Virus record (IMG/VR): IMGVR_UViG_3300042154_002208
Length of the DNA: 64,000 bases
Source: a virus
Lineage: Duplodnaviria; Caudoviricetes
Reading direction: 5' to 3' (one strand)
Every line of letters starts with the position of its first letter. The first letter of the stretch is position 1. The notes under the pieces were generated by a model. The model did no database searches. It was not told where the DNA came from and was given only the letters and a program-made list of their open reading frames with translations. Shown in pieces: positions 30,361-30,552 of the stretch. The position numbers were made by a program, and so were the translations under genes.

Positions 30361-30552
30361 AATTGGGGTTACCCGCACCAGTAGGTAATATAACAAGTGT
30401 TCAAGTCGACGGACTAGAGCTTTTATATTGCACGAAAGATGGAAACGAAGCCGCAAGGTTGATACGGTGGTCACGCTGGAGTATGTGGGCCTGTAATGTT
30501 GAGGCAGAAGGCACAAGAGACGGTCTTGTGAGATATGCGTAGTCCCCCAATT
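30361..30552 (+). ncRNA. Unassigned multi-stem structured RNA 1 (about 190 nt)
   Basis: Closing stem AATTGGGG/CCCCAATT; GTAATATAA/TTATATTGC; CCCGCA/TGTGGG; AGCC-GCAA-GGTT; CACAAGA/TCTTGTG; has its own promoter. Confidence 0.7.

What the first reader, a model, noticed from the sequence alone, without database searches (positions are those of the whole stretch)
30361..30552. Unassigned structured RNA 1 (about 190 nt) with a dedicated promoter
Seen: it starts just after a perfect sigma70 promoter and has no convincing ORF. It has an 8-bp closing stem, at least six helices and GNRA loops (GCAA, GAAA). GGACTA 30411-16 offers an alternative partner for the 3' TAGTCC. Established: T4 tRNA clusters encode non-tRNA stable RNAs of unknown function. 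Inference: a decoy for anti-phage sensors, a 6S-like RNAP mimic or a ribozyme.
Basis: partly seen in the sequence, partly recalled or inferred. Interest (0 to 1): 0.72.

Follow-up and report, generated by a model that had tools for sequence, protein, structure and literature searches.

The report
Novel structured RNA in phage tRNA-arrays
The stretch is a real gene for a folded, non-coding RNA of a family not described before, found once per genome inside the tRNA gene arrays of uncultured lake phages; its core is conserved as strictly as that of a ribozyme or riboswitch, and its function is still unknown.

Summary
Window 30359-30554 encodes a 196-nt RNA just downstream of a 12/12 sigma70 promoter (30322-30350), between tRNA-Cys and tRNA-Asp. 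No reading frame is conserved.

It matches none of the 4227 Rfam families and is not like T4 rnaC/rnaD. It is a shortened member of a family of at least 87 distinct sequences. These come from IMG/VR and lake metagenome contigs, with one copy in each of five near-complete phage genomes (131-353 kb). The family was not found in GenBank phages, and an exact 20-mer scan of GTDB genomes found none.

Typical members are about 245 nt, have no promoter of their own, and sit directly between tRNAs. Their 20-22 bp closing stem includes the NCCA end of the upstream tRNA, usually tRNA-Glu.

Covariation is strong: 89% of cells pair against 31-42% when partners are slid, and 54 of 76 pairs change on both sides. 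About 50 joining nucleotides never vary. Lake metatranscriptome contigs cover the element.

My best reading is a stable RNA cut out of the tRNA precursor through its stem, acting in trans through its invariant junction core on something in tRNA or translation metabolism. A ribozyme or ligand sensor is not excluded. The scan had noted this same stretch once before, in an overlapping window, but not on other DNA.

The parts
30234..30311 (+). tRNA-Cys(GCA), upstream neighbour
   Evidence: ARAGORN; Rfam tRNA 62.4 bits
30322..30350 (+). Sigma70 promoter, 12/12 consensus with extended -10 TG. It is an internal promoter of the tRNA array; the predicted start is near 30357 (inferred from spacing).
   Evidence: Hexamers are invariant in 7 distinct close relatives. 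Metatranscriptomes X16-X18 show no cover over 30310-30350.
30359..30368 (+). P1, 5' strand (10 bp closing stem)
   Evidence: Pairs with 30545-30554. Compensatory U-A to C-G change at 30364/30549. In the family P1 is 20-22 bp, and 16 of its 22 pairs change on both sides.
30369..30377 (+). P2, 5' strand (UUA + CCCGCA)
   Evidence: Pairs with 30484-30489 and 30494-30496. The family version is ACCAA/UUGG; all 4 central pairs change on both sides.
30378..30384 (+). Invariant CCAGUAG: P2b 5' strand (CCAGU) plus junction AG
   Evidence: Invariant in 85 sequences. Pairs with the invariant GCUGG at 30475-30479, so the pairing is compatible but gives no covariation.
30385..30431 (+). P3 arm (P3a, P3b, P3c) capped by tetraloop GACG (30408-30411)
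Evidence: 17 of 19 pairs change on both sides. The loop is G(A/C)CG in all members.
30432..30449 (+). Invariant core strand (CA-GAAAGAUGGAAACGAA) of the inner three-way junction. GAU and CG are tentatively paired with 30470-72 and 30465-66.
   Evidence: 16 consecutive invariant bases in 81-85 sequences. The tentative pairs come from RNAalifold; they show only one-sided change.
30450..30459 (+). P4 hairpin with GCAA loop; a variable peripheral arm
   Evidence: All 3 pairs covary. The loop is GNRA in about 52 of 81 members, and the arm is replaced by 16-36-nt hairpins in others.
30460..30479 (+). 3' core strand (GAUACGGUGGUCACGCUGG), nearly invariant; ends with the P2b 3' strand
   Evidence: An exact 20-mer is shared by 47 IMG/VR contigs. 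One subfamily carries a linked G.G to U.A change.
30484..30496 (+). P2 3' strand (UGUGGG ... UAA), followed by the invariant UAAUG
30502..30540 (+). Domain 2, reduced form: P6 (30502-06 with 30536-40) enclosing P7 (30512-30530, loop GACGG 30519-23). P8 is missing here.
   Evidence: Full members fold as a P6-P7-P8 three-way junction, with P6 sequences that differ freely. All 5 P7 pairs change on both sides and 99.8% are paired. L119 links the window-type 5' half to a full domain 2.
30545..30554 (+). P1, 3' strand
   Evidence: See P1 5' strand
30555..30563 (+). 9-nt trailer up to tRNA-Asp. RNase P cleavage at 30563/30564 would release the 3' end (inferred).
   Evidence: tRNA-Asp at 30564-30639. 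Separate RNA contigs cover 30373-30542 and start at 30548 in X17.
30564..30639 (+). tRNA-Asp(GUC), downstream neighbour on the same transcript

Best explanation
Shown:
- Window 30359-30554 is the gene of a stable, highly structured non-coding RNA.
- It is a shortened member of an undescribed family that occurs once per genome in the tRNA gene arrays of uncultured freshwater myophages.
- The fold is Y-shaped. A closing stem P1 carries two domains. Domain 1 is P2-P2b leading to an inner three-way junction with the long P3 arm and the P4 arm. Domain 2 is P6 with P7, plus P8 in full members.
- The helices covary, while about 50 joining nucleotides never vary.

Inferred, production:
- In this lineage host RNA polymerase starts at the internal array promoter, about 2 nt before P1, and reads on into tRNA-Asp and the following tRNAs.
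- RNase P cleavage at tRNA-Asp, then exonuclease trimming back to P1, gives the 3' end.
- In most relatives the RNA is excised from the polycistronic tRNA precursor. Its 20-22 bp P1 starts with the discriminator and CCA of the upstream tRNA. I read this stem as a processing stalk, as in rRNA operons, probably cut by host RNase III.

Inferred, function:
- The mature RNA acts in trans.
- Its invariant junction core forms a specific tertiary pocket that binds a conserved partner from tRNA or translation metabolism, acting as a decoy or adaptor. The constant linkage to tRNA-Glu(UUC) makes that tRNA or its enzymes the first candidates.

My odds:
- Real structured RNA of a new family: 0.95.
- P1 as a processing stalk: 0.6.
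- Trans-acting binder of a tRNA- or translation-related partner: 0.35-0.4.
For: Family and distribution:
- Exact-pattern scans gave 6, 15, 47 and 59 IMG/VR contigs and 103 metagenome contigs.
- There are 85 distinct full sequences (A1), plus 2 more from a looser scan.
- There is one copy in each of 5 genomes of 131-353 kb, two of them with terminal repeats.

Structure:
- 76 pairs, 89.2% of cells paired against 31-42% when slid.
- 54 pairs and 753 cells change on both sides; 0 of 500 shuffles reach this.
- For domain 1 alone: 94.9% paired and 24 of 39 pairs changed.
- An independent RNAalifold run finds P1, P2, P3, P4 and P7.

Not coding.

Context:
- The element is always on the tRNA strand.
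- tRNA-Glu directly abuts it in 51 of 85 members, with a 5-8 nt overlap.
- tRNA-Glu lies within two genes in every locus with enough flank, across at least 6 different gene orders.

Stalk idea:
- P1 length is kept by covariation, whether or not a tRNA end is part of it.
- The next module in the array is also closed by a stem of at least 20 bp.
- The promoter-driven window type keeps only the inner 10 bp.

Expression:
- In X17 a 170-nt RNA-library contig covers 30373-30542 only.
- The next contig starts at 30548.
- In X18 the core has k-mer depth of about 2200, from contigs whose overhangs match main-family members. This is comparable to the tRNA-Glu bins (1400-1800).

Trans function:
- The core is kept intact in a lineage that lost the tRNA-end pairing, gained its own promoter and lost P8.
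- P8 was also lost independently in L130 and L148.
Against: - No partner is known. No TROVE/Ro60, RtcB or RNase III gene is present in five genomes.
- The pattern of invariant junctions with freely covarying helices is more typical of ribozymes and riboswitch aptamers than of protein-binding RNAs.
- RNase III cleavage of P1 is untested. The window form has a P1 too short for it.
- Metatranscriptome evidence comes from assembled contigs. These cannot show true ends, strand or level, and RNA libraries can hold DNA; one 599-nt contig in X15 spans element and neighbours.
- Linkage to tRNA-Glu could be inherited gene order.
- The small helices GAU/RUC and CG/CG, and P2b, rest on invariant bases only.
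Confidence: 0.55

Rival explanations
1. It is a ribozyme. The invariant junction core is a catalytic centre that either cleaves the precursor at its own borders (for example right after the CCA of the upstream tRNA) or acts on tRNA ends in trans.
For: - The conservation pattern fits: about 50 invariant joining nucleotides among freely covarying helices.
- It sits exactly at tRNA borders, with P1 pairing the NCCA end; the pair at the discriminator position covaries (pairs 4-286 and 5-285).
- The layout loosely recalls RNase P RNA: a P1-closed fold, a hairpin followed by an A-rich invariant strand, and a tail just before the P1 3' strand.
Against: - No match to any ribozyme family in Rfam 15, even at E<=10 on three members.
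- The nucleotide after CCA is variable (G, A or U). It faces G.G, U-A or A-U, so there is no conserved cleavage-site context.
- The window lineage needs no cleavage at its 5' end yet keeps the whole core.
- The candidate P4-like pseudoknots (GAUG/CAUC, GGAU/AUCC) show no compensation.
Confidence: 0.13
2. It is a riboswitch-like sensor working in cis. A ligand or an uncharged tRNA binds the junction core, stabilises P2/P1, and thereby sets how the flanking tRNAs (above all the CCA end of tRNA-Glu) are processed or released.
For: - It has an aptamer-like three-way junction with invariant joining strands.
- P1 sequesters the NCCA of the upstream tRNA.
- There are competing pairings at module borders: UGGUA can pair upstream or downstream.
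- An alternative GUUACC/GGUAAU hairpin is compatible in 88-100% of sequences.
Against: - There is no expression platform (terminator or ribosome-binding site) and no terminator after it.
- The window lineage has no tRNA end in P1.
- The alternative hairpin is broken where P3a shows double changes (A.A or C.A in 6 sequences).
- The element is held in RNA libraries as a piece of its own, which suits a stable product better than a transient leader.
Confidence: 0.12
3. It is only a cis-acting spacer. It would be a structured insulator or processing cassette that separates tRNAs in the precursor, with no function of its own once cut out.
For: T4 tRNA clusters also give by-product RNAs (my own knowledge).
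Against: - A spacer needs a stem, not 50 invariant junction nucleotides, two conserved loops and a 136-nt core kept across genomes of 131-353 kb.
- The core is kept in the lineage where the stalk is reduced and a promoter was acquired directly in front of it.
Confidence: 0.08
4. It is a diverged member of a known RNA class: 6S RNA, tmRNA, RNase P RNA, Y RNA/YrlA, a group I intron or T4 rnaC/rnaD.
For: - Its size is close to that of 6S RNA.
- By eye there are similarities to group I R/S elements (GUUCAAG..GACUA and GAGAUAUGCGUAGUCC) and to the 5' end of tmRNA (UCGACGGA).
- Its position in a tRNA island matches that of Y-like RNAs and the T4 species 1 and 2 RNAs.
Against: - Rfam 15 gives nothing for the window or for full-length relatives. 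The best hit is Zeta-pan at 13 bits against a 56.7-bit cut-off.
- The by-eye similarities lie in parts that are not conserved in the family.
- A separate bona fide tmRNA sits on the contig of L020.
- R1 does not find T4 rnaC/rnaD.
- There is no TROVE or RtcB gene.
- The branched fold is unlike 6S RNA.
Confidence: 0.04
5. It encodes a small protein (for example the 59-codon TTG frame at 30363-30542).
For: Open frames of 50-80 codons exist in most members.
Against: - They lie in six different frame and strand classes.
- 16 consecutive bases are invariant, with no third-position variation.
- Changes are compensatory in helices.
- Member lengths fall into all three classes modulo 3.
Confidence: 0.01

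Closest known systems
T4 stable RNAs rnaC (species 1) and rnaD (species 2)
   Same: They are non-tRNA stable RNAs encoded inside the tRNA cluster of a T4-type phage, on the tRNA strand and made from the tRNA precursor. Their function is still unknown (annotation in NC_000866; history from my own knowledge).
   Different: No sequence or structure kinship: R1 gives 10.2 bits, E 1.2, on rnaD and nothing on rnaC. The T4 RNAs are 139 and 119 nt, and rnaC ends in a tRNA-like T arm. The present family has a 136-nt invariant-junction core and a second domain.
GOLLD and ROOL RNAs
   Same: They are ornate structured RNAs of phages and prophages, often next to tRNA islands and of unknown function. GOLLD was first seen in lake metagenomes (PMC12286853).
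   Different: They are 3-4 times larger and form multimeric cages. Their Rfam models give no match here. The architecture is different. Whether this RNA multimerises is untested.
T-box riboswitch (works like, not a member)
   Same: A UGGN stretch pairs with the NCCA end of a tRNA, and the position opposite the discriminator covaries. The invariant single strand carries GAA triplets, the codon of the linked tRNA-Glu(UUC).
   Different: The pairing is in cis within one precursor and is absent in the window lineage. There is no Stem I, specifier loop, antiterminator/terminator or downstream ORF, and no Rfam T-box match. The GGUGGU stretch is replaced by UGUAUAAU in one subfamily.
Bacterial Y RNA-like RNAs (YrlA)
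   Same: They have a long stem formed by the 5' and 3' ends plus a structured module, and are found near tRNAs, also in phages (PMC4201824, abstract). P8 of many members has a T-loop-like GUUCAAAA loop.
   Different: The only YrlA hits below cut-off lie on tRNAs. No Ro60/TROVE or RtcB gene is present in five genomes. P8 is dispensable.
RNase P RNA, minimal (type T) forms
   Same: It is P1-closed and branched, with an invariant A-rich strand after a hairpin. It is functionally tied to tRNA ends and of similar size.
   Different: The CR-I to CR-V signatures are absent and there is no supported P4 pseudoknot. No RNase P model matches at E<=10.
rRNA operon processing stalks cut by RNase III
   Same: A stem of 20-22 bp, formed by the sequences flanking a structured RNA inside a polycistronic stable-RNA transcript, with length kept by covariation.
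   Different: Cleavage was not tested. The stalk includes a tRNA 3' end. The window form has only 10 bp.

Membership tests
Any Rfam 15 family (4227 models) | Score at or above the family's gathering threshold | tested here: not met
   In the window only tRNAs pass. In 9 relatives only tRNAs and one tmRNA pass. Nothing overlaps the element at E<=10. The best hit on full members is Zeta-pan, 13.4 bits against 56.7.
6S RNA | Long, largely double-stranded rod with a large central bubble that mimics an open promoter | tested here: not met
   The covariation-supported fold is Y-shaped with two three-way junctions. There is no 6S hit.
T4 rnaC / rnaD | Sequence and structure similarity to the T4 genes | tested here: not met
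   R1 with filters off on the T4 tRNA region: 10.2 bits, E 1.2, on rnaD and none on rnaC.
T4 rnaC / rnaD | Non-tRNA stable RNA inside the tRNA cluster of a T4-like phage, on the tRNA strand | tested here: met
   This is a shared setting, not homology.
tmRNA | tRNA-like domain with T arm and CCA end, plus a tag reading frame | tested here: not met
   ARAGORN finds none in the window. There is no tmRNA hit on the element. A separate true tmRNA lies on the contig of L020.
Y RNA / YrlA | Match to the YrlA model, with a Ro60 (TROVE) protein encoded by the same genome | tested here: not met
   The only sub-threshold YrlA hits are on tRNAs. TROVE is found in 0 of 5 genomes and RtcB in 0 of 5. A host Ro60 cannot be excluded.
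T-box riboswitch | Stem I with a specifier loop, and a T-box antiterminator competing with a terminator upstream of an ORF | tested here: not met
   There is no Rfam T-box hit, no terminator and no ORF downstream; tRNA-Asp follows.
T-box riboswitch | UGGN pairs with the tRNA NCCA, with covariation at the discriminator | tested here: inconclusive
   The pairing is present in cis in the main family: pair 5-285 is A-U 63, G-U 7, G-C 2, U-A 2. It is absent in the window lineage. Binding in trans is not testable here.
RNase P RNA | Conserved regions CR-I, CR-IV and CR-V forming the P4 pseudoknot | tested here: not met
   No RNase P model hits at E<=10. The candidate P4-like pairings show no compensation.
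Group I intron | P3-P8 / P4-P6 / P7 core, and insertion within a host gene with exon pairing | tested here: not met
   No Intron_gpI hit. The R/S-like strings of the window are not conserved in relatives. The element lies between genes, not within one.
GOLLD / ROOL | Match to the Rfam models; size 500-800 nt | tested here: not met
   No hit. Members are 196-273 nt.
New family defined here (model R1) | Invariant strands CCAGUAGG, GAAAGAUGGAAACGAA, CGCUGG and UAAUG within P2-closed domain 1; position in a phage tRNA array | tested here: met
   The window scores 128.7 bits, E 2.7e-34, full length. It is flanked by tRNA-Cys and tRNA-Asp.

The most novel reading that the evidence does not exclude
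The RNA is an autonomous machine that works on tRNA. One version is a natural T-box-like docking RNA for tRNA-Glu, using a GAA codon-like strand plus pairing to the NCCA end. The other is a new ribozyme class acting on tRNA 3' ends. Either way the phage would carry it to control or protect its own tRNA pool independently of host factors.
Probability: 0.12. Interest if true: 0.95.

Novelty: new variant of a known kind. Interest (0 to 1): 0.74.

Why it matters
Phage tRNA islands are now seen as counter-defence and translation-tuning modules. They also hold RNAs whose roles have stayed unknown for decades, such as T4 species 1 and 2, GOLLD and ROOL.

This family adds a compact, well-defined case that can be worked on:
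- It is about 200-250 nt long.
- It has one copy per genome.
- Covariation is very strong, and the core is conserved at the level of a ribozyme or aptamer.
- There are natural minimal variants: the window form lacks P8 and the long stalk.
- It is tightly linked to tRNA-Glu.
- Metatranscriptome contigs show that RNA libraries hold it.

It is small enough for chemical probing, crystallography or cryo-EM, and for binding and cleavage assays. It could therefore make the question of what non-tRNA RNAs in phage tRNA arrays do directly testable. It should also be added to RNA family databases, so that these stretches stop being read as empty spacers.

Tried and rejected
- **Rfam.** Searched at gathering and E<=10 thresholds on the window and on full-length relatives: nothing. 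The Zeta-pan similarity (13 bits, E about 6) is at chance level.
- **GenBank phages.** blastn of the window element and of a full member (L016): no match. An 8-kb query matched only tRNAs.
- **GTDB genomes.** The exact 20-mer core gave 13 hits, all coincidences inside protein-coding genes.
- **Window genome.** No whole genome is held for the window.
- **T4 rnaC/rnaD.** Fetched and searched with R1: not related.
- **By-eye leads.** The group I R/S elements, the tmRNA 5' end, the 5S-like GGUGGUC and the T-box-like GGUGGU all fall on positions that vary, or that differ in subfamilies.
GGACUA/UAGUCC is not conserved.
- **5' hairpin GGGGUUACCC.** Replaced by long-range P2, which covaries. The alternative GUUACC/GGUAAU hairpin has no compensatory support.
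- **Pseudoknots.** GGAU/AUCC and GAUG/CAUC show no compensation and clash with the inner pairs of P1.
- **GACG loops.** Pairing with CGUC of the tRNA-Glu D stem does not fit members whose loops are GCCG.
- **Coding.** Rejected.
- **Full-length covariance model.** P6 and P8 are misaligned by column in A1 (70% and 62% paired); they were judged from per-sequence folds instead.
- **Looser pattern scan.** Gave 51 new loci, of which only 2 are true members.
- **Partner proteins.** TROVE, RtcB and RNase III families are absent from five genomes.
- **Literature.** Three full-text searches found no description.
- **Parts of the window without metatranscriptome cover** are not used as evidence.

Full report
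**What is in the window.**
The window is part of an uncultured T4-like phage. Its large ORFs match phage DNA polymerase, UvsX-like recombinase, DnaB-like helicase and a GroES co-chaperonin. No GenBank phage is close to it; only tRNAs match. It carries 25 tRNA genes, 24 of them in an array at 30040-38521.

The finding lies between tRNA-Cys (30234-30311) and tRNA-Asp (30564-30639). A 12/12 sigma70 promoter with a TG extension sits at 30322-30350. From spacing, the start should be near 30357, two bases before the closing stem. No terminator follows, so the transcript should run on into tRNA-Asp. The promoter is therefore an internal array promoter rather than a dedicated one.

**Not a known RNA.**
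- Rfam 15 finds only tRNAs in the window.
- Nothing overlaps the element even at E<=10.
- The same holds for full-length relatives, where the best hit is Zeta-pan at 13 bits against a cut-off of 56.7.
- The T4 stable RNAs rnaC and rnaD are not detected by a covariance model of the new family.

**A family.**
- Exact-pattern scans with pieces of the element found 6, 15, 47 and 59 IMG/VR contigs and 103 metagenome contigs.
- After removing duplicates there are 85 distinct full elements (alignment A1). A looser scan added only two more among 51 candidates.
- The exact 20-mer core hits GTDB genomes only inside unrelated protein-coding genes.
- GenBank phages give no blastn match.
- The sequencing runs that hold the window's stretch are lake or freshwater metagenomes.
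- Five near-complete phage genomes of 131-353 kb, two with terminal repeats, each have exactly one copy.

**The typical member and the window form.**
Most members are about 245 nt and have no promoter. They lie directly between tRNAs on the tRNA strand. In 51 of 85 the upstream gene is tRNA-Glu(UUC), and the element's stem overlaps its last 5-8 nt.

The closing stem P1 is 20-22 bp. Where a tRNA abuts it, the 5' strand begins with the last acceptor base, the discriminator and CCA. These pair with UGGUA at the 3' end, and the pair at the discriminator covaries.

The window belongs to a small lineage of 13 distinct sequences. That lineage has a 10-bp P1, its own conserved promoter, and a reduced second domain. 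L119 joins a window-type 5' half to a complete second domain, which shows that the window form arose by reduction. L130 and L148 lost the same hairpin (P8) independently.

**Structure.**
RNAalifold on A1, column statistics and per-sequence folds of the 3' part agree on a Y-shape.
- P1 carries domain 1 and domain 2.
- Domain 1 is closed by P2. In the family P2 is ACCAA/UUGG; in the window it is CCCGCA/UGUGGG.
- P2 is followed by the invariant P2b (CCAGU/GCUGG), which opens into a three-way junction.
- One arm of that junction is the long P3 arm, with tetraloop G(A/C)CG.
- The other arm ends in P4, which carries a GNRA loop or a longer hairpin.
- Domain 2 is P6 enclosing P7 (pentaloop GACGR) and the variable P8.

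Counted on A1, 89.2% of cells form standard pairs, against 31-42% when the partners are slid by 1-3 columns. 54 of 76 pairs and 753 cells change on both sides, and no shuffle out of 500 reaches these values. For domain 1 alone the figures are 94.9% paired and 24 of 39 pairs changed.

P1, P2, P3, P4 and P7 each have pairs that change on both sides. P2b and the two small helices GAU/RUC and CG/CG rest on invariant bases and remain tentative. P6 and P8 are misaligned by column, so I judged them from single-sequence folds, which give a P6-P7-P8 junction in nearly every member with quite different P6 sequences.

About 50 positions of the 136-position core never vary in 81 sequences, including 16 consecutive bases. 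The window's own minimum-energy fold differs from the conserved fold in the centre.

- The closing stem, the number of helices and the GCAA loop are right.
- The 'GAAA' is part of the invariant joining strand, not a loop.
- GGACUA is the 3' strand of the local hairpin P3c. Its complementarity to the 3' UAGUCC is not kept in close relatives, so a switch between these partners is not supported.
- No reading frame is conserved.

**Expression.**
Four lake metatranscriptome assemblies were laid on 29900-31100.
- In X17 one 170-nt contig covers 30373-30542, the element alone. The next contig starts at 30548.
- In X18 the invariant core has a k-mer depth of about 2200, from at least four contigs. Their overhangs match main-family members, and the depth is similar to that of the tRNA-Glu bins.
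- The promoter bins have no cover in three of the four runs.
- In X15 a 599-nt contig spans the element and its neighbours. This could be precursor or DNA.

Contigs cannot show true ends, strand or level. This shows that RNA libraries hold the element and hints that it is a separate species. It is not proof.

**How it is probably made (inferred).**
- In the window lineage, transcription starts at the promoter.
- RNase P cleavage at tRNA-Asp, 9 nt after P1, and exonuclease trimming would give the 3' end.
- In the main family the RNA has to be cut out of the tRNA precursor.
- A perfectly maintained stem of two helical turns flanks a structured RNA inside a stable-RNA operon. This is the arrangement of rRNA processing stalks cut by RNase III.
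- The next module in the array is closed by a similar stem. That stem begins with the same UGGUAUUAG that ends P1.
- No phage RNase III gene was found, so the host enzyme would do the cutting. From my own knowledge, unverified here, E. coli RNase III cleaves T4 species 1 RNA in vitro.

**What it probably does (inferred).**
The core is kept unchanged in three situations: genomes of very different size, a lineage that lost the tRNA-end pairing and acquired a promoter, and lineages that lost P8. This argues for a function of the mature RNA itself rather than of the spacer.

tRNA-Glu(UUC) lies within two genes of the element in every locus with enough flank, across at least six gene orders. My preferred reading is a trans-acting RNA whose junction core binds a conserved partner from tRNA or translation metabolism.

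No partner is known. Ro60/TROVE and RtcB are absent from five genomes.

The conservation pattern fits a ribozyme or an aptamer at least as well. I keep these as rivals at about 0.13 and 0.12. The invariant strand contains three GAA triplets, the codon read by the linked tRNA, and the main family pairs a UGGN with the tRNA's NCCA. Together these allow a T-box-like docking idea. That idea is speculative, because GAA-rich strands are common in RNA cores and the pairing is in cis.

**Verdict.**
This is a real member of a new, well-supported structured RNA family of lake phage tRNA arrays. The function is open. The family is compact, has natural minimal variants, and is suited to direct experiments.

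Noticed in passing
window 30715-30920: 'RNA 2' is a second conserved non-tRNA family. Local blastn finds it in 38 held loci, down to 71% identity. It is always on the same strand, 85-900 nt downstream of the element. Its k-mer depth in metatranscriptome X18 is 1500-3200. It has no Rfam match.
   Followed up: partly
window 30639-30714: A variant lacking these 76 nt appears as a joint (30638 to 30715) in contigs of two RNA libraries, X15 and X17. It is probably a strain difference.
   Followed up: no
L016:7000-7158 (- strand); also L024, L026: In the main family the element is followed by another module of about 130-150 nt, closed by a stem of at least 20 bp. The 5' strand of that stem starts with the same UGGUAUUAG that ends P1, so neighbouring modules compete for these bases.
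   Followed up: partly
window 31419-31555, 30998-31088, 31632-31727, 32769-32962: Other spacers of the array are conserved in relatives: 27, 13, 14 and 9 loci respectively. The first is conserved down to 74% identity. The array may hold several more RNA genes.
   Followed up: no
L020:11639-12008 (- strand): A relative's contig carries a betaproteobacterial-type tmRNA (RF01850, 151.9 bits). This hints that the hosts are Betaproteobacteria.
   Followed up: no
window 30040-38521: The tRNA set lacks tRNA-Phe and includes Ile(UAU) and Arg(UCG). tRNA-Glu(UUC) at 30120-30195 lies one gene upstream of the element, and this linkage is kept in all relatives with enough flank.
   Followed up: partly
A1 pair 9-281 (main family, first base after the CCA): A conserved G.G opposition occurs in P1 in 44 of 75 sequences, replaced by U-A or A-U in the others. 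It may mark a processing site.
   Followed up: no
A1 columns 159 and 165 (window 30466 and 30470): A linked non-Watson-Crick change, G.G in 70 sequences and U.A in 12, goes with a 2-nt insertion in one subfamily (AC-G-GUG-G-UC against AC-U-GUAUA-A-UC). This suggests a tertiary contact.
   Followed up: no
window 29212-29240, 29950-29978, 32129-32157: Three more 12/12 sigma70 promoters lie within 5 kb, two of them with a TG extension. The array seems to be transcribed from several very strong host-type promoters.
   Followed up: no
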